The notes under the pieces are model-generated. The model searched no databases. It saw only the letters and a program-made list of their open reading frames with translations, and was not told where the DNA came from. The translations under genes were made by a program, and so were the position numbers. A stretch of DNA of 20,000 nucleotides, taken from the IMG/VR virus record IMGVR_UViG_3300005461_000009; one strand, 5' to 3'. Below are positions 1,222-20,000 of this stretch, piece by piece. The stretch comes from an uncultured virus (IMG/VR IMGVR_UViG_3300005461_000009). Its lineage: Duplodnaviria; Heunggongvirae; Uroviricota; Caudoviricetes. Numbering within the stretch: the stretch's first letter is position 1; the number at the start of each line of letters is the position of its first letter.

Positions 1222-1255
1222 ATATACCTCCATACTACTAAATAAAATCAGACAT

Positions 1256-1606
1256 TCATCGTGTCATAACTTCTTTCCAATCAACCTGTCCCATAACACT
1301 ATTACTAAATAATTCTAACTCTTCCTTCTGAGCACAACTATCAGATTCACAATACTTATCTACGTCATCAAAATAATCATCACCTGTTTCTAAATACCAA
1401 TCATTCCACTCGCCTTCCAATTCGTCAAACATCTGCAAACCACCAACATTACAATAATCTGGCTTAACTCTATTTTGATACTGAAACGCATCATAAGCTG
1501 CCAATACATCTATCATCTTTTTACCTTCTTCTACACTATTAACTGGTATATAGAAAGTCTCCTTTATTCCCACTTGCGGAATCCACCACACTCTTAATTT
1601 ACTCAT
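1256..1606 (-). CDS. Phage P22 gp17-like protein (often annotated superinfection exclusion protein)
   Basis: KLRVWWIPQV...SVEEG...L.AYDAFQY.N..KPDYCN.GGL.M.D resembles the P22 gene 17 family as I recall it; RBS GGAGG at 1616-1620. Confidence 0.7.
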   Translation of the reverse strand: MSKLRVWWIPQVGIKETFYIPVNSVEEGKKMIDVLAAYDAFQYQNRVKPDYCNVGGLQMFDELEGEWNDWYLETGDDYFDDVDKYCESDSCAQKEELELFSNSVMGQVDWKEVMTR

Positions 1607-1643
1607 AGTTTTAATCCTCCAATAAAATCAAGTATTCAACTGC

Positions 1644-2339
1644 TTATTCCATGTTAATATCAACAGGATTTTCCAACTTTAAAAAATCATCTCTATGTTC
1701 TACTAAAGCTGCACTTGCAATGGAATTAATTTTATTCTGGCAGAAAGATTCAATCTCACCTTTTGCTTCCATTACCGTCTTATCCATTTGTTCATTAAAT
1801 TGATCTGCAATAAAATCCATATTACACCCGATTTCCATACTCAGTTTATTCAATTTACTGAGAATTTCCTGCTTATCTGATTTAGTAAGTGTTTTCTTTT
1901 GATTAAATAATTCTGTTACATCTTTAATAATTTGCTGTGATTCCATAGTCACTTCTTTTCTTTTTTCTTTAAACTCATCAGCAAATTGTTCTCTCTTACT
2001 AATAAAATCACAATCTGGTATACGTCCATCTCTTTCTGTCCAACGTACAGTAACAGGAACACCACTCCCCATATTCATAGATGTAATAGCTTCAGCAAAT
2101 TGTGAATAACTCATTTCTACTTCTACAATTTTTTTATCGCCATAAATAGAATCATAATGCAATCCTCTTGTAATATCTGCATGATACAAAGTCATTGCAA
2201 TTGTGTCTCTATGTTCTATACTACTTCCAAATAAAGACGTACCTCTCCCACCAGTTCTTCTACCAAAAGCCAACGTTCCGTAACTCGGATGACTTGTTTT
2301 TGTTCCAAATTGCGTATTTTCTACTTTATAATCATTCAT
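1644..2339 (-). CDS. Conserved phage/plasmid hypothetical protein with a helical C-terminus
   Basis: 231 aa with HPSYG...LFGSS...EVEMSYSQFAEAITSMN.G.GVPVT; RBS GGAGG. Confidence 0.8.
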   Translation of the reverse strand: MNDYKVENTQFGTKTSHPSYGTLAFGRRTGGRGTSLFGSSIEHRDTIAMTLYHADITRGLHYDSIYGDKKIVEVEMSYSQFAEAITSMNMGSGVPVTVRWTERDGRIPDCDFISKREQFADEFKEKRKEVTMESQQIIKDVTELFNQKKTLTKSDKQEILSKLNKLSMEIGCNMDFIADQFNEQMDKTVMEAKGEIESFCQNKINSIASAALVEHRDDFLKLENPVDINME

Positions 2340-2363
2340 AATATTTCCTCCGTTCCAATAAAA

Positions 2364-2594
2364 TCAATCATTCATTTCCATTTTCTTGCGTTTCTCATTC
2401 CAATACTTATTTGCTTCTTCGGAACCTCTAATATACAATGTTGTATATATCCCTTTTCAGAAACAGCCAGGACACAAGCAACCATGATACGCCATAATAT
2501 CTCTTATAGAATACATATTGTGTCCACAATCTGTAAAGAAAAATGTTCCATCTCCATGCTTTTCTGGTGTTGTTTGATATGTTGCAATATTCAT
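2364..2594 (-). pseudogene. Zn-ribbon-like small gene with an in-frame TGA at codon 46 (2457-2459)
   Basis: MNIATYQ...DCGHNMY...CLCPGCF*KGIYTTLYIRGSEEANKYWNEKRKKMEMND*; the frame stays open 30 codons past the TGA; preceded by an extended -10. Confidence 0.65.
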
Positions 2595-2614
2595 CTATGT
2601 TTCACCCACTTCCC

Positions 2615-2623
2615 ATTATACCA
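2615..2623 (-). promoter_or_regulatory. Extended -10 promoter element just downstream of the recombinase gene
   Basis: Minus strand TGGTATAAT (TGnTATAAT), about 20 nt upstream of the ATG at 2594. Confidence 0.55.
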
Positions 2624-2631
2624 TACATTTT

Positions 2632-3627
2632 CTATTCTAGTGCTAGTTTTTCTCTAATACCATATCCCCCATCTACATAAGTATTTACTGTGACATTCAC
2701 ATTCTTATGCCCTAACTGTTGCTGTGCGAATGCAACTCCATATTTTTCTGTTATTACAGTTCCATACCAATGCCTGATCATATGTGGAGTAAGTTTTTTA
2801 CCACTATATACAAAAAACATTGCTCTCAAGTCAGACTCTTGCATTCTTTTCCCTGTCTTATTTAAGAAAATAGCTCTGTCATCTATGACATTTATTGTAT
2901 TTCTGACTTCAAGCCATTTCAAAAATGCATCTTTTGCGGTAAGATTAAGCAAAATATTTCTTCCTAGTGCAGAATAATATACCCCTTTTCCCATTACTCT
3001 GATATGTGGCGTTTTTTCTATTTCGTTTCCATCTAAGAATAATGAAGAAAATTCTAATTCTATAAGTTCACATGCCCTCAAACCTGTATTCATCAGGATT
3101 GTAAGTATAAGCAGGTTCCTGTCCCTTACAAAACGGTCATTCTTCTTTTTCTGATTAATATTTTTCCTCATTTCTTCCAGATCGTCCTTTGATGGCATTT
3201 TAACATAGCGATTATATCCAGAATCCAAACCTTCATATGCTACATCTTCAATAATGTTACATTTTACAGGTACACTAGGAGAATTAACCATAGACTTCCA
3301 AAAACTTCTAAAAATGTTTTTCCTTGTGTTCAATGTTGTCGGCGATATTCCTTCATTTTGTTTTTCTTCTAAATACATATTTATATAAGCTGACTCTATA
3401 TATTCCATATCTGGCGGTGTAATTTCTGATATACTATTCTTTTGAATCAGCCTTTTATCTATCATCCATCGTAACAAATTTTTAATAACAGAATAATAAT
3501 TTAATGCACCTAATTTACTTTTTCTGTTTAAAAGATATAACTGTATGAACATTGGTATATTGTCTTCATTCATTTTCCTTTGTAATTTTTCCGCATTTTT
3601 CTTCTGAATTTCATCCTTATAACACAT
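2632..3627 (-). CDS. Tyrosine recombinase/integrase (XerC/D-like), catalytically intact
   Basis: R (TGLRACE), K (MGKG), H-x-x-R (PHMIRH), H (LGH) and Y (NTYV); 331 aa with an N-terminal core-binding-like region. Confidence 0.95.
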   Translation of the reverse strand: MCYKDEIQKKNAEKLQRKMNEDNIPMFIQLYLLNRKSKLGALNYYSVIKNLLRWMIDKRLIQKNSISEITPPDMEYIESAYINMYLEEKQNEGISPTTLNTRKNIFRSFWKSMVNSPSVPVKCNIIEDVAYEGLDSGYNRYVKMPSKDDLEEMRKNINQKKKNDRFVRDRNLLILTILMNTGLRACELIELEFSSLFLDGNEIEKTPHIRVMGKGVYYSALGRNILLNLTAKDAFLKWLEVRNTINVIDDRAIFLNKTGKRMQESDLRAMFFVYSGKKLTPHMIRHWYGTVITEKYGVAFAQQQLGHKNVNVTVNTYVDGGYGIREKLALE

Positions 3628-3674
3628 AATAAATCCATCCTTTCTATGTTTTTCTACATTATACTTCTACATTC

Positions 3675-3709
3675 AAAAAGAAAAGCACTAACGTTTCCGT
3701 CAATGCTTC
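3675..3709 (-). terminator. Intrinsic terminator after yoeB
   Basis: Minus strand AAGCATTGACG-GAAA-CGTTAGTGCTT followed by TTCTTTTT. Confidence 0.8.
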
Positions 3710-3727
3710 TCAACACACTCTAAACTA

Positions 3728-3982
3728 TCAATAATGATATCTACATGTATACACAATCAAATTATTTCCTTCCACTTGATACACTAACCTATGTTCATCC
3801 GTTATTCTTCTACTCCACTTTCCAGCTAAATCGTATTTTAGCGGTTCTGGCTTTCCAAGTCCCTCAAATGGATTTCTCTTTATATCTTTAATCAATTCAT
3901 TTATTCTTTTTACAATTTTCTTGTCCATCTTCTGCCAATAAAGATAATCCTCCCAAGCATTTTCCGTGAAAGATACATTCAT
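3728..3982 (-). CDS. yoeB: YoeB/Txe family toxin (ribosome-dependent mRNase)
   Basis: AWEDYLYWQ...GLGKPEPLK...WSRRITDEHRLVY...CRYHY; 84 aa. Confidence 0.95.
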   Translation of the reverse strand: MNVSFTENAWEDYLYWQKMDKKIVKRINELIKDIKRNPFEGLGKPEPLKYDLAGKWSRRITDEHRLVYQVEGNNLIVYTCRYHY

Positions 3983-3985
3983 AGA

Positions 3986-4237
3986 CTAATCCTCCACATC
4001 AAAACTTACAAGTTTTCCATCTTCAGCTTGCTTGATAGACTCTTTCAACCACTCATAATTCGCTTTACTTTCCCTTATATGAAGATTTTCCATCAGATTA
4101 TCATACTGTGCCTGAGACATAAGCACAACATTTTCATCGTTTTTTCTCGTAATTATTGCGATATCAGAATCATGTACAACCCGATCGCAAACTTCTTTGA
4201 AGTTATTCCTTACATTTGAAAAATTTGTTGCTATCAT
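3986..4237 (-). CDS. yefM: YefM/Phd (Axe) antitoxin
   Basis: NFSNVRNNFKEVCDRV...IITRK...VVLMS...Y..L.E; directly upstream of yoeB. Confidence 0.95.
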   Translation of the reverse strand: MIATNFSNVRNNFKEVCDRVVHDSDIAIITRKNDENVVLMSQAQYDNLMENLHIRESKANYEWLKESIKQAEDGKLVSFDVED

Positions 4238-4259
4238 ACAATCACACTCCTTTGAATAT

Positions 4260-4311
4260 AGTATATTCTATATTCTTAGTATTGTCAATATTTTGTACAA
4301 TATTCTGTGCA
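4260..4311 (-). promoter_or_regulatory. SigA promoter and autoregulatory operator of yefM-yoeB
   Basis: TTGACA (4283-4288), 17 nt, TATACT (4260-4265); TGTACA at 4294-4299 and TGTGCA at 4306-4311, 12 bp apart as in known YefM-YoeB operators. Confidence 0.8.
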
Positions 4312-4340
4312 ACTATGTATCACAAGTTGAAACGATGATT

Positions 4341-4904
4341 TCAAGTCTGTTTTAAAATTCTTCTCATTACTATTAAAAATCTATTTTTCTGTTTCAATCG
4401 CCTTATGTAATATAATTTTTTCCATAAGTCATCATCATATGATTTCTTCATTTGATATAAGATAATTTCCGTTAATTTCTTCATTAAATCTTCTGGTAAA
4501 ATATCCTGTTTAATAAGATTACATACGCTACAGGCAACTTGAAGATTATCCATTGCATTAGTTCCACCTTTTGCTAAAGGAACAATATGATCGACTGTAA
4601 AACTGTCATATGGAATAAATTTTCCGCATATTGCACATCTCCCTTTACCCTTATTATAAATTTTAATTCTTTCCTCTGACGAAAATTGTTTGCGCTTAAT
4701 TTTATGAATATCTCCTACCTGTTGCATGGTTTCCATATCAACAATCTTATAGTCTTTCAATTTCTTTGTCGCTTTATTTAGCATAGCTCTGGCACTACCT
4801 TGTGTTTCAAACCTTGTTGCCAAATTTAGGTTTTGTGTTTTACATATTGTATGTTTGCCATCCAGATAGCAATAATAAGCGTCTTTTTGCAAAATATATG
4901 CCAT
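4341..4904 (-). CDS. HNH endonuclease domain protein
   Basis: CAICG...TVDHIVPLAKGGTN...NLQVACSVCNLIK; GGAGG favours the start MAYILQK at 4904 (ORF track extends to 4997). Confidence 0.9.
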   Translation of the reverse strand: MAYILQKDAYYCYLDGKHTICKTQNLNLATRFETQGSARAMLNKATKKLKDYKIVDMETMQQVGDIHKIKRKQFSSEERIKIYNKGKGRCAICGKFIPYDSFTVDHIVPLAKGGTNAMDNLQVACSVCNLIKQDILPEDLMKKLTEIILYQMKKSYDDDLWKKLYYIRRLKQKNRFLIVMRRILKQT

Positions 4905-5020
4905 ATATTTTATCCTCCAAATCGTTTTATATAAACTACTTCTCTTTTTCGTGTTGAAGTATAGAACACGATTCCATGCATATACAGCATGAAACAATCT
5001 ATATCAAATCATATACACTT

Positions 5021-6064
5021 TCAACTTGCTTCGGCCAAAGATTTCGTATTTCCAAAATACCTATCATAATCCTTTTTGATTTCCTCCACCCTCTTCATAA
5101 CAGCAGAATTCTTTCCAGTTCCTCTTCCGGCAGCGTCATTATATGCTTTAGAAGTTGTAGCAGATTTCTTTCCGCTAAAGAAATTTACAAACCATTCCAT
5201 CATTTGTTTGTCAGAATATCCGTCATTAAGCGACTCTGCAACAATCGGCACAATACTAATCATATGCGTCCTGGCATAAATCCTCTTTGCAATTTTCTTA
5301 TCCTCTATCATGGCATGTATATTGTAAATACGGTCGAATACTTCGCTAAGTAAGAATTCATCATCCTTTGTAATATCTGCCATTCTCATGTAAGGACGAA
5401 TCCATTTTGCATCTGTAGAAACTTCACTGTCATTTAAGATTGCATGTGCTTTGGCCACCATATCTTCATTCACATGTCCATCTAAAGCTGTCTGACTTAA
5501 AGCATCAGCAAACAACTTATGCTTCCCAAGATTGATAATCTGTTCCTTTGATTTTGCTTTTACACGGTTCATCGTAGCAGCGTTTAATGCCTGACCATTA
5601 TTCAGATTATAGAATGTATCCGCCTGTTCTTCCTGATTCGCATTGTCCGTATAGCAAATTGTGAATGAATACTCCTTAATAGCGTTCTGGAAACATTCAG
5701 GAAGATCACTAAACTTGTACCCGTTGATGTCAATTTCCTCTGTTTCGCTCTCATCATTTATAACTGTAAATTCTTCAAGTCCGCTCAATTCAAACTCATT
5801 ATTCAAGAATTTGATGATAGTTAATGTCCGCTGTTTCCCATCTTCGCCCTCATAAACATCTTCCACTTTATTGAAATACAGAGGAGGAACATGTCTATCC
5901 AATATCAAAGAGCGAATCAAAGCAGATTTCTTGTCATTATCTTTCCACACATAACCCCTTTGAATATCAATGTTAAAATTCACTGTTCCATCTTCCACTA
6001 ATTCAACAAGTTTCCGTGCTGTCCACTCTGTTCTTCCACGATCCGCACCTTTAATTATCTTCAT
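5021..6064 (-). CDS. DUF262 (GmrSD N-terminal, ParB/Srx-like) protein, no C-terminal HNH
   Basis: IQRGYVW, LIRSLI...VPPLYF, DGKQRT, FYNLNNGQAL. Confidence 0.85.
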   Translation of the reverse strand: MKIIKGADRGRTEWTARKLVELVEDGTVNFNIDIQRGYVWKDNDKKSALIRSLILDRHVPPLYFNKVEDVYEGEDGKQRTLTIIKFLNNEFELSGLEEFTVINDESETEEIDINGYKFSDLPECFQNAIKEYSFTICYTDNANQEEQADTFYNLNNGQALNAATMNRVKAKSKEQIINLGKHKLFADALSQTALDGHVNEDMVAKAHAILNDSEVSTDAKWIRPYMRMADITKDDEFLLSEVFDRIYNIHAMIEDKKIAKRIYARTHMISIVPIVAESLNDGYSDKQMMEWFVNFFSGKKSATTSKAYNDAAGRGTGKNSAVMKRVEEIKKDYDRYFGNTKSLAEAS

Positions 6065-6087
6065 GACATTTCCTCCATTTCACCAAA

Positions 6088-7017
6088 TCATTTTGAGATT
6101 TTAACTTTCTTCCCGTTCTCTACATATATCTTCTTCTCTATTCCAAGTCCATCACATACCAAATCTTCCACATAAAGAACACAAGATACTCTGTGGTCAC
6201 GCTTCGGATATTTTGATTTTGCTTCTGCACTGAATAACGCAGGATCAATCTGCCTTAATTCCTTTGACAAATACCTATGTATTTCTTTCCTATCATTCGG
6301 ATGGGCAATCCAAACCTCCCTTAATGCCCTCATTACAAATGTCGCATATCCGTTTGTCTCTTTATTCCACCCAGCATTATCAACGATAGAAAAAATAAAG
6401 TCCAGACACTTTTCACCATGCACTTTCGCAATTGAATACGCATCTGTATAACTTCCAAGTATAGACTCTCCTCTATTTCCTTTAGTGGCTACAAATTTAA
6501 TTCCATATTTGTTTAAAAGTTTATCCAGAGAAACGGCAGCATTATCACCAATAATCACTCTTGAAAGATGCTTTTCAAGAGGCTTCACATTTTCCACTTC
6601 TGAATCCTGTCCGATAAAATACTCAGCTTCAAATTTCAGACGTTCATCCAAATCTTCAGGAGCATCCATGAGAATGATTGCATTAAGACGATCCATACCC
6701 TTCTCAGGAGCCACAAGACACCTCCCCTGACCATCTACAACCGCAAATCTGGATTCTTCTGGATGTGGTACTAAGATAATAGGTGTCAACTTTCGTTCAT
6801 CCCATTTATTCTTTAACCGATTCAGATGCTTATGTGTTCTCATGCCCTGATACCTTGAATCCACAAAACAACAAGACAACGGAACAACTGCACTCCCTGT
6901 AATTGCTCTCTGATTCTTACCTTTTCCAACAGTCATAAGTGGCTTGATATTTGCCACTATGTCATTGAACTGCTCCATCCTCCTTGTTTCCTCATTCATT
7001 GCCACAACTGTGCTCAT
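6088..7017 (-). CDS. ParB/Srx-like DGQ-R protein (DUF6551-like)
   Basis: VDSRYQ...WDERKLTPIIL...FAVVDGQGR...EAEYF. Confidence 0.65.
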   Translation of the reverse strand: MSTVVAMNEETRRMEQFNDIVANIKPLMTVGKGKNQRAITGSAVVPLSCCFVDSRYQGMRTHKHLNRLKNKWDERKLTPIILVPHPEESRFAVVDGQGRCLVAPEKGMDRLNAIILMDAPEDLDERLKFEAEYFIGQDSEVENVKPLEKHLSRVIIGDNAAVSLDKLLNKYGIKFVATKGNRGESILGSYTDAYSIAKVHGEKCLDFIFSIVDNAGWNKETNGYATFVMRALREVWIAHPNDRKEIHRYLSKELRQIDPALFSAEAKSKYPKRDHRVSCVLYVEDLVCDGLGIEKKIYVENGKKVKISK

Positions 7018-7051
7018 ACTGGAACCTCCTTGAATATGTAATTTTTTGTAT

Positions 7052-7089
7052 AATAAAAAGCATCTGGATTTTTATTTTCCAAATGCTTT
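7052..7089 (-). terminator. Terminator-like hairpin
   Basis: AAAGCATTTGGA-AAATAAAAA-TCCAGATGCTTT followed by TTATT. Confidence 0.7.
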
Positions 7090-7132
7090 ACTACCTTAAT
7101 GTATTTAGTTAAATATCACATTGTCGTGCCTA

Positions 7133-7477
7133 CTATATCACTAATGCCAATGATCTTTGCAAATCTCTTATTTCTTTTTGAAGTCCTTCAGCAATACATT
7201 TTTTTATTTCTCCCAAATAATCATCTATGTTCTGTTCATTAGTCAAGAAGATAAAATATTCATATGAATTTGAACTCCAATGTTGCATTTTCCATTTTTC
7301 AAAGCAATCAAATGGGATATGATATCCAAAGCCGAACGTTTTAAACCCGTCTTCATAAACTGCGTCTACTTCACATTCACTTTTTCTTAAATCTTCTTTT
7401 CCTGCTTCGACCTCATATGTATATTTATATATTCTTCCACCATTTTCTATCCATTTGAGAAATTGTTCTTTATCCAT
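7133..7477 (-). CDS. Hypothetical protein
   Basis: 114-aa ORF with GAGGA RBS. Confidence 0.75.
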   Translation of the reverse strand: MDKEQFLKWIENGGRIYKYTYEVEAGKEDLRKSECEVDAVYEDGFKTFGFGYHIPFDCFEKWKMQHWSSNSYEYFIFLTNEQNIDDYLGEIKKCIAEGLQKEIRDLQRSLALVI

Positions 7478-7517
7478 TTATCCTCATCCCTTCCTTAAAT
7501 ATCTAATTTCATCAATA

Positions 7518-7856: not shown

Positions 7857-7891
7857 ATTTTTTCCTTTCCCTCTTGAAACAATCATTTTAT

Positions 7892-8056: not shown

Positions 8057-8090
8057 TATAATTCCTCCATTTTTCCATGAAATAATCCTT

Positions 8091-9140
8091 CTATTCGCTA
8101 CTACTTTCTTCCAAAAACTCCTCAAAATTTTCTAACAATATTTTCCCTCTCAGTTCAACCGCCTCTTCCGTAACTGCAACACGACCTTTTGAATATTCAT
8201 TATACTTGTTGTTAATAGATACAAATCTAGTTCCTGTTCCAAAAAACGTAATCAACCATTTTTCGACTAATTCAATATTTATATTTTCATGAATAGTTTT
8301 TTTCAATATAGACATTAAAGAAATTAAATGAACTTTTCCTAAAATCTTTTTGACAACCTTAAACTGTTCGGCATTCTGCAAAATCTTATAAACTTTTAGA
8401 AAAGCATCATATATTCTATTAATTTCTTCTACCTGATCCTTTGTAATTACTGTTTCCCGCATTACAGGACGTATATTTTTTGTTTCAAATGATTTTTTAG
8501 TGCCATATAACAATATCCATGTCTTAATTACAACATCTTCATTTGCATATGCAGCCAATGACTTTTCTGATAAAGCAACATTAAACATTTCATGTTTTGC
8601 AAGTTGACTAATTTCTATTTTAGAGATTGCATTTGCTCTTGTCAATTCTATTGCCGTCAGCGATTTTCCATTATTTAATCTACGGAACATTTCTTCGGCG
8701 TCTTCCTGATCCATATTTTCATAATAATAAATAGTCAGGTTATATGTTTTAATAGTGTCCCTTATATCTTCCGGAAGTTGAGAAAATGTCAATCCATTAA
8801 AATCATGCTCAATTCCATCCTCATCTTCAAAGGAGGGAGTATTTACAAGCGGAAATTCATCATTCAAAAATTTTATAACAGTCGTTGTTCTTTGTTTTCC
8901 ATCAAGGAAATCATATGTTTTATTTTTGATATCTTCAAATATACAATTACAATACATTGCAGGAATTGGAAACCCTCTCATCATACTGTCTATCAATATA
9001 CTCATGCGATTGTCTTTAGAAGTATTTTTCCACACAAATGATCTCTGTACTGCGTTATCAAAAGATAAATTGCCCTTATCATACATCACCTTTAAATCTC
9101 TTGCCATTCTAGGAAAAGACTTTCTCTCATAAGTCTTCAT
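8091..9140 (-). CDS. Second DUF262 (GmrSD N-terminal, ParB/Srx-like) protein
   Basis: VQRSFVW, LIDSMMRGFPIPAMY, LDGKQRT, FRRLNNGKSL; AGGAGG favours the start at 9140. Confidence 0.85.
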   Translation of the reverse strand: MKTYERKSFPRMARDLKVMYDKGNLSFDNAVQRSFVWKNTSKDNRMSILIDSMMRGFPIPAMYCNCIFEDIKNKTYDFLDGKQRTTTVIKFLNDEFPLVNTPSFEDEDGIEHDFNGLTFSQLPEDIRDTIKTYNLTIYYYENMDQEDAEEMFRRLNNGKSLTAIELTRANAISKIEISQLAKHEMFNVALSEKSLAAYANEDVVIKTWILLYGTKKSFETKNIRPVMRETVITKDQVEEINRIYDAFLKVYKILQNAEQFKVVKKILGKVHLISLMSILKKTIHENINIELVEKWLITFFGTGTRFVSINNKYNEYSKGRVAVTEEAVELRGKILLENFEEFLEESSSE

Positions 9141-9459: not shown

Positions 9460-9499
9460 TTATAACACCTCCTCATATTGTTGTCTTAAAATGCGAATT

Positions 9500-9736
9500 T
9501 TAAAGATAATCTAATAATTCACTTGCTAAATTTACTTTTCCTTGTGTAATTCCAACAAGTGCAGCATTTAACATATTCCTACTTGCTTGTTCACTTTCTT
9601 TTGCTCTTTCAAAAATTGAATTTTGATATTCTTTTTCAATCTTGCTAAGTCTATTATTTTCTTTTCTTAAATACCTGTTCTCTCTAACAATATCTGCCAT
9701 TGTTAAAATTATGTCTTCTACCTCATATCTTTCCAT
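9500..9736 (-). CDS. Hypothetical coiled-coil protein
   Basis: ORF track to 9754; GGAGG favours the start MERYEV at 9736. Confidence 0.7.
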   Translation of the reverse strand: MERYEVEDIILTMADIVRENRYLRKENNRLSKIEKEYQNSIFERAKESEQASRNMLNAALVGITQGKVNLASELLDYL

Positions 9737-10060: not shown

Positions 10061-10109
10061 TTATTCCCTCCAATTCTGTCTTGAAATACGAGATTCATTG
10101 TTCTAATTT

Positions 10110-10430: not shown

Positions 10431-10464
10431 ATACCTTCCTTTCGATGAAATTCCGATTTCATTG

Positions 10465-10617: not shown

Positions 10618-10708
10618 ATTGTCCTCCATTCATTTTCGATAAAATCCTGATTTCCAGTCTTTAATCAACTAACTCAAACCCAAAGTGGTAAAATCTAGTG
10701 TCATGCTT

Positions 10709-12313: not shown

Positions 12314-12413
12314 AACCATACCTCCATATATCTAATAATTATTTCTGACAAATTTTATCTTGTTTCTGATCACTCTCAAAAATCCTCCATTCTATGTACT
12401 TGAAACCATTGTT

Positions 12414-12620
12414 TCAAGACTTATACAGTTCTGCTTCTCGTTTCCATGTTTCTTTATCTACAATCTGGTTAATTCTCCATTCAATAGACATTCCATTATT
12501 AAGTAATTCCATTTCATCAAATATTTTAATTGCCATTTCTAAAGATTCTTTCTTTTCATATCCCTTTTTCTGAATCAATCTCACAGCTTTTAAAACGTTA
12601 TTATATGTCCTCCGCTTCAT
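12414..12620 (-). CDS. Hypothetical protein
   Basis: 68-aa ORF with GGAGG RBS; its stop lies inside the palindrome at 12401. Confidence 0.7.
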   Translation of the reverse strand: MKRRTYNNVLKAVRLIQKKGYEKKESLEMAIKIFDEMELLNNGMSIEWRINQIVDKETWKREAELYKS

Positions 12621-13174: not shown

Positions 13175-13208
13175 CCTTTCTACTCTCTACTTCTCCATTT
13201 ATTCCATC

Positions 13209-13271
13209 TTTATAGCCACTATAAAAGGCATTAACGGAAATATTCGTTAGTGCCTTCTAATTGGTTATAAA
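13209..13271 (-). ncRNA. Structured intergenic motif, copy A (unassigned)
   Basis: Outer stem-UUAGAA-inner stem-loop containing GAAUAU-inner stem-UUUUAUAGUG-outer stem; same architecture as 15993-16056. Confidence 0.55.
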
Positions 13272-13754: not shown

Positions 13755-13784
13755 TATATCCTCCCATCTTGAAACGATTTTTCA

Positions 13785-14009: not shown

Positions 14010-14043
14010 AAGCCCTCTTCTATTTTTCTTTGAATTTTCCCAT

Positions 14044-14082
14044 AATAAAAGCAAGCAACATTCCCACTTGTCACTTGCTTAT
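14044..14082 (-). terminator. Terminator-like hairpin
   Basis: AAGCAAGTGACA...TGTTGCTTGCTT followed by TTATT. Confidence 0.65.
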
Positions 14083-14110
14083 TACTTCTATTTCTATGCT
14101 GTTTAATTAT

Positions 14111-14371: not shown

Positions 14372-14391
14372 ATTCGTTTCTTTTTAAATTT

Positions 14392-14420: not shown

Positions 14421-14528
14421 AATTATTTCCTATTTTTATACTATTTATTTGCCTTATTTAAGGACTTAACGCAACGTACATATATATGATTTAAGGCATT
14501 AAATAGGCTTGTAAGACGCAATTTGAAA

Positions 14529-14729
14529 TTATTGCGCACTATGTCTAGTAATCCACGATTTCGCTTCTTGAATAGTCAAAAAACAATCTTGTGCGTCTAA
14601 CGCATTTGTTAAACACACTCTTCTATTTTCCGTTTTTCTGAAATAATCATAAATCAATTTACCAATAGGGTTTAATGTATTTCTAGTTATTCTCATTAAT
14701 TCAAAACTTGTCATTTTTCTTTCCTCCAT
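14529..14729 (-). CDS. Hypothetical protein
   Basis: 66-aa ORF; GGAGG favours the later start MTSFELMR. Confidence 0.6.
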   Translation of the reverse strand: MEERKMTSFELMRITRNTLNPIGKLIYDYFRKTENRRVCLTNALDAQDCFLTIQEAKSWITRHSAQ

Positions 14730-14757
14730 ATCTTAAAACAGTAGTTTCATGGGTATT

Positions 14758-15510
14758 TTAATCCCAATACCCATGATTTTCTTTTATTTCAATAAGAATA
14801 ATATTTCTGCTTTTCAAAATGATTGTATATGGTGTACCTCCTTTATATCCAAAAAATTCCCCAGATTCACGCATTTTTCTATTATCCTCTTTTGTAAATC
14901 TTTTGCCACTACTTATAATAGAACCAACTTTACGACATTCTAAAATAAGTTTTTCTCTTGCTTCCTCCTCTGTATCGGCTTCTATGTTACATGTGCATGT
15001 ATTTACTTCCTCAGAATTATTAGAACTATCTAAAAGAGTTTCTGTAACTGAAAATACATAGATATTTTTATATGCCGGAATCCCCAATTCATCACAAACA
15101 ATTTCTTTTGCTTCTGTTTCGCTGATTCCTTGTAACTCTACACGAAAGGCAGTTCTTTCATCCTTAGAAAATCTGCTATATTTTTCGTTTCTTTCCACCT
15201 CAAAAGGAAAATTATAGTTAACAACTTTTCCACTTTCAAAAAGTGAATCAGATGCAGAGTCTCCACAAGTAAAGAAAGAGCCATCAGAGCAAAGGAACCA
15301 ATTTGTTTTACCACCGCATTTTCTAACATCATCAACTGTAGCAAACTTGTAAAACATTTCTTCAGGACAATCTATCTCTCCCAAATAACGATATAACAAG
15401 TCCTTTTTGCGGCTTGCAACAATTCTGTTTTCTTCTCTTTCCATATTGGCAAATAGAGCGTTCCACTCTCTATTATCAAGGTTTTCTAACTGCGCCATAA
15501 TATTCAACAT
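14758..15510 (-). CDS. Hypothetical protein
   Basis: 250-aa ORF with AAGGAGG RBS, directly downstream of the hammerhead. Confidence 0.8.
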   Translation of the reverse strand: MLNIMAQLENLDNREWNALFANMEREENRIVASRKKDLLYRYLGEIDCPEEMFYKFATVDDVRKCGGKTNWFLCSDGSFFTCGDSASDSLFESGKVVNYNFPFEVERNEKYSRFSKDERTAFRVELQGISETEAKEIVCDELGIPAYKNIYVFSVTETLLDSSNNSEEVNTCTCNIEADTEEEAREKLILECRKVGSIISSGKRFTKEDNRKMRESGEFFGYKGGTPYTIILKSRNIILIEIKENHGYWD

Positions 15511-15532
15511 AAAGTTTTACCTCCTTCAGCTT

Positions 15533-15593
15533 GCCATCATCACTGTATAAGCCGCTATCTTATACAGACTAGCCACAAATGGCTAGTTTCGGC
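15533..15593 (-). ncRNA. Type II hammerhead ribozyme, variant core (G in place of C3)
   Basis: GCC-GAAAC-UAGCC(auuugu)GGCUA-GUC-UGUAUAAG(auagcgg)CUUAUACA-GUGAUGA-U-GGC; predicted cleavage between 15567 and 15566. Confidence 0.8.
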
Positions 15594-15619
15594 TTTATTT
15601 GTCCAATGAAATACACGAT

Positions 15620-15772
15620 TTATCTTACGTATACATTGATATTTCTCTCCATATCTCGCAGCAACTTATAGCCTAAGTGTTTTTTGCTCATTCCACAATC
15701 TACAAGTTTGTATTTCTTATCTAGCTCGTATTCATCAAATTCTTTCCAAGAACACCATATATTAGTTATCAT
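15620..15772 (-). CDS. Small hypothetical protein (50 aa)
   Basis: MITNIWCSWKEFDEYELDKKYKLVDCG...; GGGAGG RBS; its stop lies inside the palindrome at 15607. Confidence 0.6.
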   Translation of the reverse strand: MITNIWCSWKEFDEYELDKKYKLVDCGMSKKHLGYKLLRDMERNINVYVR

Positions 15773-15785
15773 ACCATAACCTCCC

Positions 15786-15962
15786 TTAATATCCAACTAT
15801 CAGCCAATGCAAAAACATTAAAATCGGCATTAGAAACATTGCAGCACCAGCAAGATAACATTCTACTATTTCATTTTTCTTTTGCCTTTCTTCTGCAAGT
15901 ATAATTTTTCTTGCCTGATCCAAGGTATAATAATCATATTCTGCAACTATATTATTCTGCAT
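15786..15962 (-). pseudogene. Doubly frameshifted small membrane-protein gene
   Basis: AGGAGG plus ATG, then RIIVAEYDYYTLDQARKIILAEERQK in a shifted frame and IVECYLAGAAMFLMPILMFLHWLIVGY* after a second shift. Confidence 0.55.
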
Positions 15963-15992
15963 TTTTCAACCTCCTACCTTTTATTTATCTTT

Positions 15993-16056
15993 TTTGTAAG
16001 CACTATAAAACGGCTATAGTCTTATATTCTCTATAGCCGTTCTAACTACATACAAA
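15993..16056 (-). ncRNA. Structured intergenic motif, copy B (unassigned)
   Basis: UUUGUAUGUA-G-UUAGAA-CGGCUAUAG(agaauauaaga)CUAUAGCCG-UUUUAUAG-UGCUUACAAA. Confidence 0.55.
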
Positions 16057-16152
16057 TTATTTGATTAGTTTTTTTGTGCTTATTTTACAAGTGTAAGTAC
16101 AATTATTCCTTTTACGTTTTTTAAGGTTTACACCTTTCTTTAAATTAATCAT
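16057..16152 (-). CDS. 31-aa basic ORF or gene remnant
   Basis: AAAGGAGG RBS; MINLKKGVNLKKRKRNNCTYTCKISTKKLIK. Confidence 0.35.
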   Translation of the reverse strand: MINLKKGVNLKKRKRNNCTYTCKISTKKLIK

Positions 16153-16186
16153 GTTGTCCTCCTTTCAAATTACAATTTCATCGGCT

Positions 16187-17836
16187 TTATGCCGTTTTCT
16201 CTTCCAGTAAATTCAGATTATTTCCATCAAACAAGTAATACTCTTTATTAGAAATAACTTTGCTATACTCTTTTTCTCCTTCAAACTCATTTACAACTGC
16301 TTTTTCTTCTGCTGTCATATCTTTATAATCCTTCTTTCCGTAGGAAGGTGGCAACCATCCTTTGTGCTGAGAACCAAATATATTAAATTTTTTCAGTAAC
16401 TCGTCATTGTTAAATACAATATGACATGTACCTTTTTTGTAGAATGTGACAGTAAAATACTTTAACTGTATATTCTTTGTCTCTCCGTATTCCTCTGCAA
16501 ACTTTAGGGATTCTTCCAGATCAACCGCTTCTGTTAGCCCTCCATCAAGATAGTTAAAACATTTTTCTATATCCTGTAATTTACTTACAACATCATGCCT
16601 TGACGGTCTGAATCCTCCCCATGAATAATTAAGGTCATAAAAACCATTTAAAGGAATAATCACTTTTTTATTGATTATCCATCCCTTGTTTGTTTTCCAT
16701 CCATTGTAATAGTGAATGTTTTTTGACGTTTCATCAAGCCAATGGTATTTATAACTTAATTCATCAAAAAGATCTATTATGGTATCCTCTATTCCTTTAA
16801 CAACTTTTTTCTGTATATCAATTTTTAACTGGTAGATATTATAAAGTGAAAAATCATAGTTACTTAATTCTTCCACTTTATTATAAAAATCTCTTTGCAG
16901 ATTATTTGTAAGCTGCCCTATAAATCTTTTATTTTCAAAAAGTGCATTCCAATATTTACTCCGCACCATTTTTATATATTCATTAACAGAAAGCCCATTT
17001 TTACTACAAGTCATGGAGATAATACAGCCGCCTTTTTGTATCGTTTCCCCTGTCTTTTCGTCTTTTCCAAACTGTGACAAAATAAACGGCTGCATTGCAT
17101 AATATTCTTTAATCAATTTTATTCCTGCTTCCACTTCTAACTGATATTGTTTTACAATAGCCTTGAAAAAATCACTATCAATTAGTTTTGTGCTTTCCTC
17201 TGCCTGAAATTCTTTTTGATCTTTTGCTTCTCTTAATCCTTCCAATATAAAAGATTCTCTTTGCACCTCTGGAAGCTGAACCTTTACAAGCGCAATTTCA
17301 ACCGCCGTTTTCCGTTCCGCATCCAGAAAAGCATTTTGTATAAACTCAATTTTTGCGTTATATTCTGTGAGTTTACGCTGTAAATACTGCCTATCATTTG
17401 TACATAGATTTTTTAAAGTTTCCGCATTGAGAAGACACACAACCGCACCGCCATTTCTTTGTTGCATTTCTAAAGCCTTTAAAAGATGTTTGCAACCGTT
17501 AGAAAAAGGCGGATTCATAATAATTAGATCGTATTCCTTCATCGTGTTATATGTAAGAAAATCATTATAAACAACACGGAAATTTTTCCCTTTAAGAATA
17601 TGCTGCAGATTCTGATCAGCTTCTATACAATCAATATCAAACTGATAGTATTGTTTGCCATAATATTTATTATGGTTTCCTTCTTTCTTCTTTAATGCCT
17701 CAACTATATCTCCCTTACCCGCCGATGGTTCCAAAATACTTTTTATCATTGTAAAATCTAAATCAAAAAGCATCTTGTCAATAATATTTTGTGGTGTAGG
17801 ATAAAACTCTTTTGGTAACATTATCATTTCCTCCAT
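16187..17836 (-). CDS. Class I SAM-dependent N6-adenine DNA methyltransferase with a DUF4942-like C-terminus
   Basis: EFYPTP, ILEPSAGKG (motif I), IIMNPPF (motif IV); C-terminal YFTVTFYKKGTCHIVF. Confidence 0.85.
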   Translation of the reverse strand: MEEMIMLPKEFYPTPQNIIDKMLFDLDFTMIKSILEPSAGKGDIVEALKKKEGNHNKYYGKQYYQFDIDCIEADQNLQHILKGKNFRVVYNDFLTYNTMKEYDLIIMNPPFSNGCKHLLKALEMQQRNGGAVVCLLNAETLKNLCTNDRQYLQRKLTEYNAKIEFIQNAFLDAERKTAVEIALVKVQLPEVQRESFILEGLREAKDQKEFQAEESTKLIDSDFFKAIVKQYQLEVEAGIKLIKEYYAMQPFILSQFGKDEKTGETIQKGGCIISMTCSKNGLSVNEYIKMVRSKYWNALFENKRFIGQLTNNLQRDFYNKVEELSNYDFSLYNIYQLKIDIQKKVVKGIEDTIIDLFDELSYKYHWLDETSKNIHYYNGWKTNKGWIINKKVIIPLNGFYDLNYSWGGFRPSRHDVVSKLQDIEKCFNYLDGGLTEAVDLEESLKFAEEYGETKNIQLKYFTVTFYKKGTCHIVFNNDELLKKFNIFGSQHKGWLPPSYGKKDYKDMTAEEKAVVNEFEGEKEYSKVISNKEYYLFDGNNLNLLEEKTA

Positions 17837-17869
17837 TTTATAAGGCGGTATATTTCAACCGTCTTTATA

Positions 17870-19555
17870 TTATCCTGTTTGTAATGCTTCCGTTGGATCA
17901 TATTTAAAAATAAAACCACGTTTAAAACTGCTATAATAGCCTTGTAGCGTTGCAAGTTTCCGCTTAACCTCCGCAAAGTCTGACTTGTTTAATTCCTTTT
18001 CAGGCTTCACAATCCAGATTTTCGCGTGTGTTTGCGTGTGCTGATCCTCTGTAATTGTATAGGAAATACTTGTTTTTTTCGCTTCTGGTTCTTCCTTTGT
18101 GCTTTGTGCTTCCTGTGCCGGTTCTGCCGTCTGTGTTGTTTCCGCTATAATTACGTTCAACTTCTCTGATGGATTTTCCTTGAATAAAAACGCATGTTTA
18201 AATTTTGAGTAATATCCGCCCAAAGATTTAATATACTTGTTTACGGTTATATACTCTTCACGGCTCAATTTTTCCGCAACCTTCACAAGATATATTTTTT
18301 CTCCTGTACGTGTGTCCGTGTCTTCTGATACTTCATATGCATAGGCGTTTACGTCTGTTTCCTCTGTCTGTGCCGTTTCCGTTGTGGTAGATGTCGTATT
18401 TTTCTTTTCTGCTTTAATAGTCTTTTTTACAACCTTTTCCACCTCATATGGCGTTTTTACCTCTTCAATATGACACCATGCAATAGAACCCTTTTCAATC
18501 CATTTTGTGAGGCATTCAGAATCACCACTACCAACAAACCAATAGTTATTACGGCTTGCGTTTCCTGTACATTCCTTTGTAAGTTTTCCATTTAGTTTAT
18601 AAGCATGAAAATGTTTCTGTCCGTTTCTCTCTGTTTCATGGATACGATATACAAGCCCTTTATAACATCCATAATTGAAATTAGATTTCAGAATGAAAAG
18701 CTGTCCCTCTTTAATGCTTCCAGTCGTATCTTCTACAACTTTATTTTCTTTTTTGTATTCTGTAACGGTTACTTTTTCATATACAGTTCCGTCACCTTCT
18801 CCAATTAAACCGCCACAAGTAGTATCAATTTTATTGATGAATGTCTCAAACTTATCTATCAGCTTGATATCTTCCTCTAAATCCTCAATATGTCTTTCTG
18901 TATTCTTTCTTGCGTCTTCCTCACTGTCATAATATCCACGGTTTACAAGGTCTTGTGTGTGCTTATCGGCATATGCTTTTTTGTCCTTCTTATATTCGTT
19001 CAACCATTCCATATCACGGTTATAATTGTAATATTTCCAGATATGGGCAAATTTCAAAATGCCGTTACCCTTTGCAATAATGATCCCATCTTTTTCAATA
19101 TGCCAATTCATTTTTGGAGGGTGTGCCATATGTCCGGGAACTGTACCAACAACAATATATTTACTTGCGTTTTCCGTTGTTTCTTCTGCTTTTTTCTGCA
19201 AACGTTCAATAGATAATTTTGCGCTTGCTTCTTCTGCTTCCGATGCTCCACGTTCAACGGTCATAGCTTCCAACTTTTTGATTTTTTCCGCTATGCTGCG
19301 ATCATATGTAAAACCAGAGTAATTATATTTTCTGATTTCCTGCGGTTCTGCTGCGCCGTAAACATCCACGCATAAGATATAACCATTCTTTTCTGCTACT
19401 CCATCCCAATGTGCCGGACTCCAATAATCTGTCATGCTGTCACTTTCATCTGGTGTATATCCATACACTTTCCAACCTTCCATGGACATAAGTTTGTGAG
19501 CGATCATAACCTTTACTTCTCTGTAATCATAGTAATTTGACATAATTTCCACCAT
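17870..19555 (-). CDS. Multidomain polyvalent-protein-like gene
   Basis: N-terminal DESDSMTDYW (LPD29-like), KIKKLEAM..RGASEAE helix (DUF2786-like) and two C-terminal repeats ending GYYS.FK..F.FK..P. Confidence 0.6.
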   Translation of the reverse strand: MVEIMSNYYDYREVKVMIAHKLMSMEGWKVYGYTPDESDSMTDYWSPAHWDGVAEKNGYILCVDVYGAAEPQEIRKYNYSGFTYDRSIAEKIKKLEAMTVERGASEAEEASAKLSIERLQKKAEETTENASKYIVVGTVPGHMAHPPKMNWHIEKDGIIIAKGNGILKFAHIWKYYNYNRDMEWLNEYKKDKKAYADKHTQDLVNRGYYDSEEDARKNTERHIEDLEEDIKLIDKFETFINKIDTTCGGLIGEGDGTVYEKVTVTEYKKENKVVEDTTGSIKEGQLFILKSNFNYGCYKGLVYRIHETERNGQKHFHAYKLNGKLTKECTGNASRNNYWFVGSGDSECLTKWIEKGSIAWCHIEEVKTPYEVEKVVKKTIKAEKKNTTSTTTETAQTEETDVNAYAYEVSEDTDTRTGEKIYLVKVAEKLSREEYITVNKYIKSLGGYYSKFKHAFLFKENPSEKLNVIIAETTQTAEPAQEAQSTKEEPEAKKTSISYTITEDQHTQTHAKIWIVKPEKELNKSDFAEVKRKLATLQGYYSSFKRGFIFKYDPTEALQTG

Positions 19556-19606
19556 TTAACCTTTCTTTGATTATCTATGTATCAATAACTATTTCTCTGT
19601 TAATTT

Positions 19607-19681
19607 CTTGTTACCCTCTGCATTTTACAGGCTTGGGACTGTCTGAAAGTTGATCAGGCTTTCAGGCTGCATTATAACAAG
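19607..19681 (-). ncRNA. Twister ribozyme (type P1)
   Basis: CUUGUUA-U^AAUGCAGC-[CUGAAAG/CUUUCAG]-ACAGUCCCAAGCCUGUAAA-AUGCAGAGGG-UAACAAG: P1 CUUGUUA/UAACAAG, conserved GUCCCAAGCC and GAGGG; predicted cleavage between 19674 and 19673. Confidence 0.9.
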
Positions 19682-19731
19682 CAAGGCAGACGGTTTTATT
19701 TTCCATCTGCCTTTAAATATCCCTTTTATTG

Positions 19732-19974
19732 TTAAAAATTTCTTAAAAATCCATTAGCCGAGTAATCATACAGTGTCCAATTAATCCACTCTAATGCTTC
19801 TGTGATTTCAAACGTTCCATCATATCCGGATGTATGGACTTCAAGAAAATGTTTTCCATTTTTGACATGTTTCTTAAGTTGCAAAAACATTCCATCATCA
19901 AAGCGCAATTCCAACGTTTTAGTTGTTGCTTTGAGGAATTTATTAATTTTTTCAATAGCTTTATTCATGACCAT
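19732..19974 (-). CDS. Hypothetical protein
   Basis: 80-aa ORF flanked by palindromes at 19713 and 19982. Confidence 0.7.
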   Translation of the reverse strand: MVMNKAIEKINKFLKATTKTLELRFDDGMFLQLKKHVKNGKHFLEVHTSGYDGTFEITEALEWINWTLYDYSANGFLRNF

Positions 19975-20000
19975 TTTCCTTTCAAATAATTGTTTTATTG

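What the first reader, a model, noticed from the sequence alone, without database searches (positions are those of the whole stretch)
1243..19997. Gene-junction palindromes with variable 6-bp spacers plus a resident tyrosine recombinase: candidate phage cassette-shuffling system
Seen: TAAAA-TCAGAC-ATTCA (1243), TAAAA-TCAAGT-ATTCA (1623), TAAAA-TCAATC-ATTCA (2359), TGAAA-CGATGA-TTTCA (4328), TAAAT-ATCTAA-TTTCA (7496), TGAAA-CAATCA-TTTTA (7875), TGAAA-TAATCC-TTCTA (8078), TAAAA-TGCGAA-TTTTA (9487), TGAAA-TACGAG-ATTCA (10082), TGAAA-TTCCGA-TTTCA (10446), TAAAA-TCCTGA-TTTCC (10640), TGAAA-CCATTG-TTTCA (12401), TGAAA-CGATT-TTTCA (13770, N5), TAAAA-CAGTAG-TTTCA (14734), TGAAA-TACACG-ATTTA (15607), TCAAA-TTACAA-TTTCA (16165), TTAAA-TATCCC-TTTTA (19713), TCAAA-TAATTG-TTTTA (19982). 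Copies sit at or just after the end of the upstream gene. Six contain the stop codon in the arm (1256, 4341, 8091, 9500, 12414, 15620), and most lie a few nt before the next RBS rather than at promoters. Several single genes are bracketed by two copies. Known: tyrosine recombinase core sites such as dif have inverted arms around a 6-bp spacer (AA-N6-TT), and integron and pdif arrays delimit cassettes similarly. Inference: these are recombination sites for inserting, excising or reordering accessory genes, possibly by the intact recombinase at 2632-3627. Alternatives are a repressor or nucleoid-protein operator, or an mRNA-level signal. The arms are shorter than in typical Xer sites.
Basis: partly seen in the sequence, partly recalled or inferred. 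Interest (0 to 1): 0.88.

Follow-up and report, generated by a model that had tools for sequence, protein, structure and literature searches.

The report
Addressed gene-swap joints in a phage
A large gut-bacterial virus carries dozens of short DNA joints between its genes, each with its own six-letter address that related viruses keep in the same order while the genes between them are replaced by unrelated ones, which points to an undescribed, targeted way for viruses to trade genes.

Summary
The motif is real. TRAAW-N6-WTTYA marks about 63 gene junctions of this 159-kb SPbeta-like provirus, whose relatives lie in mouse-gut Lachnospiraceae genomes. Every spacer in the genome is different. Relatives keep the same spacers in the same order (46 of 46 shared spacers collinear with each of two relatives; about 2 shared by chance). 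The genes between matching sites are usually unrelated (253 of 374 slot comparisons). Where two phages share only one flank, the spacer is identical in 80 of 89 pairs, and identity falls just outside it. The enzyme is not identified. The window's recombinase is intact but replaced by an unrelated one in address-sharing relatives; so is the YomM-position recombinase elsewhere in the genome. Only about a third of breakpoints use the sites, and no recombination was observed directly. It works like Acinetobacter pdif modules but is neither pdif nor integron. Nine literature searches found no description. This scan noted the same kind of system before in other SPbeta-like phages.

The parts
1243..1258 (.). 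Address site; holds the stop codon of the GP17-like gene
   Evidence: same spacer in 4 of 7 clade-A records
1623..1638 (.). Address site
   Evidence: Same spacer in 4 of 7 records; homology with G001 ends here, spacer one base different; joint end at 1639
2359..2374 (.). Address site
   Evidence: 5 of 7 records; homology with G001 starts here, spacer identical and arm different; joint end at 2358
2632..3627 (-). Tyrosine recombinase, 331 aa, with R184-K214-H282-R285-H307-Y317 intact; itself cargo of the slot 2359-4343; candidate enzyme, not proven
   Evidence: Pfam PF00589; below all XerC/XerD/XerS/IntI cut-offs; nearest solved structure XerH, E 2.5e-8; alignments
3728..4237 (-). YefM-YoeB toxin-antitoxin pair, in the same slot as the recombinase
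   Evidence: Pfam PF06769, PF02604; kept in this slot in G001 and G005
4328..4343 (.). Address site; holds the stop codon of the HNH gene
   Evidence: 4 of 7 records; breakpoint with G001, spacer identical; joint ends at 4345 and 4346
5021..7477 (-). Conserved block: DUF262/GmrSD_N 347 aa, 309-aa protein, 114-aa protein (slot 4343-7496)
   Evidence: the 309-aa and 347-aa genes also lie beside a recombinase homologue in unrelated record G003
6562..6577 (.). Strong motif copy inside the 309-aa gene; function uncertain
   Evidence: conserved with the gene; not counted as an address
7496..7511 (.). Address site
   Evidence: 6 of 7 records; breakpoint with G001, G002 and G005, spacer identical
7875..7890 (.). 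Address site
   Evidence: 4 of 7 records
8078..8093 (.). Address site; holds the stop codon of the second DUF262 gene
   Evidence: 6 of 7 records
9487..9502 (.). Address site with stop codon
   Evidence: 6 of 7 records; joint end at 9503
10082..10097 (.). Address site
   Evidence: 5 of 7 records; joint ends at 10079 and 10100
10446..10461 (.). Address site
   Evidence: 5 of 7 records; joint end at 10446
10640..10655 (.). Address site
   Evidence: 3 of 7 records; joint end at 10659
12401..12416 (.). Address site with stop codon
   Evidence: 4 of 7 records; joint end at 12417
13770..13784 (.). Decayed address site (one base lost, 5-bp spacer)
   Evidence: 14 of 15 bases match the site that G001, G005 and G006 hold at this rank
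14734..14749 (.). Address site
   Evidence: 4 of 7 records
15607..15622 (.). Address site with stop codon
   Evidence: 5 of 7 records; joint end at 15603
16165..16180 (.). Address site
   Evidence: 5 of 7 records; breakpoint with G018; joint end at 16178
19713..19728 (.). Address site
   Evidence: 2 of 7 records; joint end at 19732
19982..19997 (.). Address site
   Evidence: 4 of 7 records; joint end at 19977

Best explanation
[quoted passage not shown] Because each site has its own non-palindromic spacer, a site can in practice react only with the site of the same rank in a related phage genome (superinfecting phage against resident prophage, or two prophages). One crossover makes a hybrid or cointegrate; a second at another shared address swaps everything between, even if the DNA on both sides is unrelated. 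The genome is thus a fixed order of about 60-85 addresses with exchangeable slots of typically 1-3 genes. Shown: motif, uniqueness, conserved order, replaced content, identity switching at the spacer edges. Inferred: the chemistry, the two-crossover route, and the enzyme. My odds for the enzyme: recombinase at the YomM position (G000 46508-47530) 0.45; either or both phage recombinases 0.2; the window's recombinase alone 0.2; host or other protein 0.15.
For: (1) G000 shares 46 spacers with G001, 46 with G005 and 42 with G006, all collinear; chance gives mean 2.2 shared, maximum 8 in 1000 shuffles, and shuffled order gives at most 15 collinear. (2) In 85 slots held by two or more of 7 records, 253 of 374 pairs share no protein cluster and 20 are identical. 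(3) Site pairs linked only by a flank outside the site have identical spacers in 43 of 51 (upstream shared) and 37 of 38 (downstream shared); chance 4.6e-4. The variable arm position is 0.45-0.55 identical on the unshared side and 0.80-0.82 on the shared side. (4) 29 of 89 G000 alignment ends lie within 20 nt of a site (3% of the arm); junctions with a site carry an end in 22 of 55 cases, those without in 19 of 93 (p=0.013). (5) In four mouse-gut assemblies from four studies, 14 of 30 joint ends lie within 5 nt of a site, about 2% of the window (counted by hand). (6) 0 of 327 distinct spacers are self-palindromic against 6.9 expected; near-identical spacer pairs are depleted in 2 of 4 genomes tested. 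(7) Three further clades have their own address sets; SPbeta and phi3T share 24 of 24 collinear spacers, 4 with both flanks unrelated. (8) All 20 near-complete relatives scanned encode PF00589 proteins; both non-integrase loci keep the catalytic set in the 26 rows aligned. (9) Precedent: pdif recombination needs identical or near-identical 6-bp spacers (PMC13141974, passages).
Against: No recombination event or enzyme binding was observed; all evidence is comparative. About two thirds of alignment ends are not at sites (60 of 89 in G000; 427 of 583 across the clade). The clean published swap between phi3T and phi3Ts does not end at sites. Laboratory SPbeta-phi3Ts hybrids were attributed to homologous regions in 15 of 16 cases (10.1101/2020.05.06.055103, passages). 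No recombinase family tracks the array: within one address-sharing clade the YomM position holds three families about 20% identical and the window slot two families about 12% identical. Nine of 89 one-flank pairs have different spacers. Without requiring the partner to score as a site, spacer identity is 42 of 75 and 71 of 137 (the misses include small indels and other clades' arms). Pairs among 7 records are not independent (35 and 25 distinct addresses). The arms are short and degenerate for a tyrosine recombinase. Joints have short sides (20-45 nt) and unknown intervening sequence.
Confidence: 0.78

Rival explanations
1. The sites bind a protein for another purpose (repressor, nucleoid or packaging protein) and, being the only similar sequence between diverged neighbours, serve as micro-homology for a relaxed annealing recombinase, as proposed for phage 'boundary sequences'.
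For: Boundary-sequence recombination is an old proposal (PMC3029335, passages). SPbeta encodes a Sak4-like annealing protein (annotation) and uses a recombinase-fold protein, MrpR, as repressor (PMC10516654, passages). No recombinase family is constant. Most breakpoints lie elsewhere.
Against: The perfectly shared stretch is often only the spacer plus a few bases, the arm differing on the unshared side about half the time. Micro-homology would not favour spacer over arm, nor exclude palindromic spacers. No MrpR/YopR homologue was found in G000 or G001 by tblastn.
Confidence: 0.11
2. Integron-like system: single cassettes are excised as circles, reinserted and reordered by the resident recombinase at 2632-3627.
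For: Many slots hold one gene with RBS and no promoter (101 of 329 slot observations hold one gene). A few pairs join unlike spacers, G000 lacks several addresses that relatives hold, and G018 has two blocks in swapped order.
Against: Order is conserved almost perfectly. Excision by matched spacers is impossible when all spacers differ. No site-to-site circle junction (contigs drop rare forms). No attC-like hairpin: arm and outer positions do not covary. The resident recombinase is not constant.
Confidence: 0.05
3. A nuclease cuts the interrupted palindrome to leave address-specific sticky ends that the phage ligase rejoins between genomes (a natural ordered-assembly scheme).
For: Would also need unique, non-palindromic spacers; G000 encodes an NAD-dependent ligase and many HNH proteins.
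Against: All six spacer positions are kept about equally (0.92-1.00), longer than overhangs I recall for such enzymes (recalled, not tested). No conserved candidate nuclease among genes shared by at least 8 of 12 larger relatives. Cutting 60 sites would fragment the genome.
Confidence: 0.03
4. Purely regulatory: operator or mRNA signal at gene junctions, with no role in exchange.
For: Position just upstream of RBSs (mostly 11-33 nt before start codons); concentration in the early arm.
Against: Cannot explain spacers kept while both flanks are replaced. Promoter-like matches in the window are at chance level (103 vs 104.5). Watson-Crick pairing at the variable arm position is at or below expectation (20 vs 29.3 in G000). 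No Rfam match.
Confidence: 0.03

Closest known systems
pdif / dif modules of Acinetobacter plasmids (XerC/XerD; PMC13141974, passages)
   Same: Accessory genes bounded by two-armed sites with a variable 6-bp spacer; exchange needs identical or near-identical spacers; single modules replaced through cointegrate formation and resolution.
   Different: Here on a phage; one symmetric degenerate arm instead of distinct XerC and XerD arms; 60-85 sites per genome instead of a handful; spacers unique and in a conserved order across a population; phage-encoded candidate enzymes below Xer cut-offs.
Integrons and attC arrays, including those found in phages (PMC9892861, abstract and outline)
   Same: Arrays of small, often promoterless genes separated by recombination sites; tyrosine recombinase nearby.
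   Different: No hairpin site, no IntI, no stacking at one attI, and order is conserved rather than shuffled.
PeSL cassettes of T4-type phages (PMC2839356, abstract and outline)
   Same: Repeated intergenic elements at which related phages exchange non-essential genes.
   Different: PeSLs are promoter plus terminator repeats that recombine with each other and make mini-circles; these sites are 16-24 bp, carry no promoter, and each has a private spacer.
Boundary or linker sequences of lambdoid and mycobacterial phages (PMC3029335, passages)
   Same: Short conserved sequences at mosaic boundaries that keep gene position.
   Different: Those are proposed homologous-recombination substrates without dyad structure; here a common dyad frames a rank-specific core.
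MrpR/SPBRE of SPbeta (PMC10516654, passages)
   Same: A recombinase-fold protein and a repeated intergenic element in the same phage group.
   Different: MrpR lacks catalytic residues and represses at 9 ChAP-seq peaks; no YopR homologue was found in G000, and both G000 recombinases are intact.

Membership tests
pdif/dif modules | Two different arms, one for XerC and one for XerD | tested here: not met
   Left and right arms follow one symmetric consensus and assort independently
pdif/dif modules | 6-bp spacer whose identity governs exchange | tested here: met
   80 of 89 one-flank pairs have identical spacers; comparative evidence only
pdif/dif modules | Catalysis by host XerC and XerD | tested here: inconclusive
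   XerD model over cut-off in 1 of 3 host draft genomes; phage recombinases far below XerC/XerD/XerS cut-offs; activity not testable
pdif/dif modules | Alternating C/D and D/C orientation on a plasmid | tested here: not met
   Sites lie on a provirus and have symmetric arms, so no such alternation exists
Integron | IntI integrase | tested here: not met
   TIGR02249: no hit for the window protein; 30-40 bits against cut-off 265 for the YomM-position proteins that hit it
Integron | attC sites forming single-strand hairpins | tested here: not met
   No covariation between arms or outer flanks in five genomes; no dedicated attC model was run
Integron | Circular cassette intermediates and variable order | tested here: not met
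   Order conserved; no site-joined circle in contigs of four runs, which cannot show rare forms
Tyrosine-recombinase core site | Inverted arms around a 6-8 bp asymmetric overlap | tested here: met
   0 of 327 spacers palindromic
Tyrosine-recombinase core site | Exchange at the overlap edges | tested here: met
   Identity profile drops at the first variable position outside the spacer on the unshared side
Tyrosine-recombinase core site | Binding and cleavage by a cognate enzyme | not testable with these tools
   Two intact candidates per genome, neither constant
PeSL cassettes | Early promoter plus terminator stem-loop in each element | tested here: not met
   Promoter-like matches at chance level; terminator-like hits touch 3 copies (6562, 14734 edge, 15607 neighbourhood) and no others
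MrpR/SPBRE repressor system | Catalytically dead recombinase-fold repressor | tested here: not met
   No tblastn hit of YopR in G000 or G001; both candidates keep R, H-x-x-R, H/W and Y
SPbeta-like phages | YonO-type RNA polymerase, YomM-type recombinase, SPbeta-type replication block, 120-180 kb | tested here: met
   YonO E 2e-10 and YomM 32% identity in G000; helicase, primase, RecJ, polymerase. Distant relative, not Spbetavirus: no megablast match among named phages

The most novel reading that the evidence does not exclude
SPbeta-like phages have a dedicated, recombinase-driven exchange system in which a population-wide book of 6-bp addresses replaces sequence homology: it aligns non-homologous genomes position by position, lets any slot (including the recombinase genes themselves) be swapped, and defines which phages can interbreed, so that divergence of the address book acts as reproductive isolation.
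Probability: 0.5. Interest if true: 0.95.

Novelty: new variant of a known kind. Interest (0 to 1): 0.86.

Why it matters
How phage mosaic boundaries form without homology is a long-standing question, usually answered by illegitimate recombination plus selection (PMC3029335). Here a sizeable share of boundaries has a sequence rule that can be tested directly in the SPbeta/phi3T laboratory system, where the YomM and YopP recombinases were not assigned a function in the papers I searched. It would explain how these phages exchange small accessory genes (defence, counter-defence, exclusion, toxin-antitoxin) while keeping gene order and expression. A recombinase that works with dozens of mutually exclusive spacers on short arms would also be useful for multiplexed cassette exchange.

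Tried and rejected
Named-phage megablast of the window: no match. Rfam: none. Direct-repeat search: nothing longer than chance-like AT-rich pairs. Promoter overlap: chance level. RNA or DNA hairpin: no covariation. Window recombinase as dedicated enzyme: not constant in address-sharing relatives; of 69 loci of at least 12 kb around its homologues, 58 passed a rough array test, most others were borderline, and L332 (G003) and L397 showed none. YomM-type as sole enzyme: seven array-bearing records (G001, G005, G014, G009, G037, G018, G047) hold other families at that position. A site just after the stop of the YomM-position gene holds for 5 of 5 clade-A records but for only 7 of 58, 9 of 65 and 10 of 71 wider loci, so it is not general. 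Obligate pairing of the two recombinases: families occur in many combinations, so no complex prediction was run. G007 seemed to lack the array in one locus but has it (35 junction hits) and lacks the late arm, so it says nothing on the enzyme. phi3T/phi3Ts swap as a clean test: ends not at sites (the first attempt stopped at SNPs). De novo dyad scan was noisy and was replaced by per-clade profiles. In one search the numbering of addresses absent from G000 was faulty, so its 'same address' and 'within 3 addresses' tallies are not used; slot pair counts are unaffected. G003 yielded no motif (2 sites). Three runs with next to no shared words and one with 0.11 were not used.
Full report
Context. 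The window is G000:67877-87876 (minus strand) of a 159,091-bp provirus record. It is a distant SPbeta-like phage: YonO-type RNA polymerase (E 2e-10), a YomM homologue (32% identity) and an SPbeta-type replication block. Named genomes with close homologues of the 309-aa gene include Acetatifactor muris, Roseburia sp. and Eubacterium plexicaudatum, and the runs that hold the DNA are labelled mouse gut where labelled. The window lies in the early arm; its genes read on the minus strand and are mostly small and unannotated.

Observation. All 18 copies are present. The 6-bp spacing is enriched over every other spacing (15 vs 0-7 in the window; 63 vs 23-42 in the record). In the early arm 40 of 49 hits lie at junctions, which make up 21% of positions. 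A profile refined on seven related records finds 63 junction copies in G000, against 12, 0 and 1 for spacers of 5, 7 and 8. Gene calls came from my own simple ORF and RBS script, so junction assignments are approximate. The consensus is a symmetric arm (W-T-R-A-A-W, with weak outer preference) on each side of six nearly free bases. Arms assort independently, and pairing at the variable position is no more frequent than chance, so this is a double-stranded, two-half-site motif and not a hairpin.

The spacers are addresses. I fetched 19 related records, chosen from hits to span identity levels and recombinase types. Six share G000's spacers (clade A). G000 has 46 in common with G001, 46 with G005 and 42 with G006, in each case all in the same order. 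Column-shuffled spacers give 2.2 shared on average (maximum 8 of 1000) and shuffled order gives at most 15 collinear. Within a record spacers are unique: one duplicate among 16 records. None of 327 distinct spacers in four clades is self-palindromic (6.9 expected); near-identical pairs are depleted in G005 (10 vs 20.9) and G035 (2 vs 11.3) but not in G016 or G037. Neighbouring spacers resemble each other more than chance in 4 of 8 genomes, which suggests new addresses arise by duplication and mutation. Clades B, C and D have their own address sets and slightly different arms; C shares about 10 addresses with A. The same book recurs in prophage loci of different host genera: 8-16 G000 addresses, all collinear, in 4 of 12 loci, 5 and 2 in two more, none in six.

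The slots are swapped. In 85 slots present in two or more of the seven records, 253 of 374 pairwise comparisons share no protein cluster and 20 are identical. The slot between 10082 and 9487, for example, has different genes in all five relatives that hold both addresses.

Crossovers map to the spacer. Pairing sites by flank similarity outside the site, spacers are identical in 43 of 51 pairs sharing only the upstream flank and 37 of 38 sharing only the downstream flank (chance 4.6e-4); pairs sharing both flanks give 20 of 22 and intermediate pairs 19 of 22. The variable arm base is 0.45-0.55 identical on the unshared side and 0.80-0.82 on the shared side. The spacer therefore belongs to both parents and each arm to one, as expected of a 6-bp overlap region. 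An earlier version that did not require the partner to score as a site gave 42 of 75 and 71 of 137; its misses include indel offsets and other clades' arms. These pairs come from seven records and 35 and 25 addresses, so they are not independent events. Because mosaic boundaries favour gene junctions anyway, I tested junctions only: 22 of 55 with a site carry an alignment end, against 19 of 93 without (p=0.013), and 28 of 68 junction ends lie within 20 nt of a site, which covers 13% of junction positions. Contigs from four runs of four studies show 15 joints; 14 of 30 ends lie within 5 nt of a site and four joints run site to site (1639/2358, 9503/10079, 10100/10446, 19732/19977) (counted by hand; short sides, intervening sequence unknown, no circles at sites). 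In SPbeta 80-134 kb against phi3T 76-126 kb, 24 of 36 and 28 motif hits share spacers, all collinear: 9 in conserved DNA, 2 partly so, 9 with one flank unrelated and 4 with both; 7 of 23 block ends lie within 20 nt of a site.

Results against. Most alignment ends are not at sites (60 of 89; 427 of 583 across the clade). The phi3T/phi3Ts replacement ends at a stop codon and an RBS, not at sites. Laboratory hybrids were ascribed to homologous regions; the supplement listing their 16 sites was not visible to me and bears on this claim. The system explains a substantial minority of boundaries, not all.

The enzyme. G000 has two PF00589 genes: the window gene and the YomM homologue at 46508-47530. 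Both keep the catalytic set, as do the aligned counterparts in relatives. Neither is constant. At the YomM position clade A carries three families about 20% identical; in the window slot it carries two about 12% identical; families combine freely and cross clade borders. Twenty of 21 near-complete relatives match the YomM-position protein at E<=0.001 and 10 of 21 match the window protein (many of these records were found with the former as query, which biases the count). The window type also occurs, with the 309-aa and DUF262 genes, in an unrelated record without the array, which suggests it belongs to a module like SPbeta yopP-yopQ (inference). In clade A the YomM-position gene ends 4-11 bp from a site in 5 of 5 records whatever its family, but this is not general. 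G033, whose YomM-type gene has two internal stops, has a weaker array (18 vs 5-6), a single weak hint, and it has another intact recombinase. A canonical host XerD passes its cut-off in 1 of 3 host drafts. I rank the YomM-position gene first, without proof.

Mechanism. Inferred from established tyrosine-recombinase chemistry and the pdif precedent: when two related genomes meet in a cell, the recombinase joins sites with the same spacer; a second exchange at another shared address swaps the segment between. Unique, asymmetric spacers prevent deletion and inversion within one genome and keep genes in register and orientation behind existing promoters. Rare reactions between unlike spacers may explain lost addresses and the nine discordant pairs.

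Comparison and novelty. It works like pdif modules but fails their defining features (distinct XerC/XerD arms, alternation, plasmid location); it fails the integron, PeSL and MrpR/SPBRE tests as listed. Full-text searches found no description of address-conserving sites in SPbeta-like phages; the word yomM did not occur in the three SPbeta papers searched. The library lacks most subscription journals. Papers seen: passages of PMC10516654, 10.1101/2021.11.22.469490, PMC13141974, PMC3029335, 10.1101/2020.05.06.055103, PMC11984713 and PMC8270828; abstract and outline of PMC9892861 and PMC2839356; no supplements. The label 'ParB-like' sometimes given to DUF262 neighbours and the overhang lengths of restriction enzymes are recalled, not from a call. 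Earlier notes of this scan describe the same kind of system on other DNA; I had written the address reading before seeing them, and they are not independent support.

Verdict. Observation confirmed; interpretation partly supported and sharpened. Best explanation 0.78; enzyme open; new variant of a known kind; interest 0.86.

Noticed in passing
window 7057-7090, 13205-13260, 14049-14105, 14444-14490, 15993-16050: A second class of junction: terminator-like hairpins with similar flanks where contigs also branch (loose ends at 7089 in three runs and 15993; joints 14101/14444, 14105/14448, 13236). Possibly PeSL-like exchange points that complement the address sites.
   Followed up: no
window 1256-1606: Homologue of superinfection-exclusion protein gp17 (PF17420) as a single-gene slot; three relatives hold other genes there.
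   Followed up: partly
window 5021-7017 and L261:585-3769: The 309-aa unknown protein, DUF262 protein and tyrosine recombinase travel together into an unrelated 50-kb record (G003) at 94%, 88% and 48% identity; resembles the SPbeta yopP-yopQ arrangement.
   Followed up: partly
window 16187-19555: DUF4942 methyltransferase-like gene (546 aa) with a 561-aa partner; the pair is shared with G005 and G018.
   Followed up: no
G000 98230-99865 (L009:18230-19865): Avd plus reverse transcriptase, i.e. a diversity-generating retroelement, 98-99% identical in G007.
   Followed up: no
G018 65785-87515 (L210-L211): Two address blocks are in swapped order relative to other clade-A records, and the 309-aa gene is cut after about 92-109 residues; rearrangement or misassembly.
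   Followed up: partly
G033 157278-158294 (L309): YomM-type recombinase with two internal TAG stops in a complete 185-kb phage with a weaker site array.
   Followed up: partly
window 6562-6577; G000 32731 and 135295: Strong motif copies inside conserved genes, kept in relatives; may be intragenic exchange points or coding coincidences.
   Followed up: no
G000 64144-66200: A run of short blocks conserved with G001, G002, G005 and G018 between the two genome arms, with few good ORFs; possibly non-coding RNAs or an origin/regulatory region.
   Followed up: no
G000 15880-16338 and 92295-92645: Two MazF-like genes in addition to the YefM-YoeB pair in the window.
   Followed up: no
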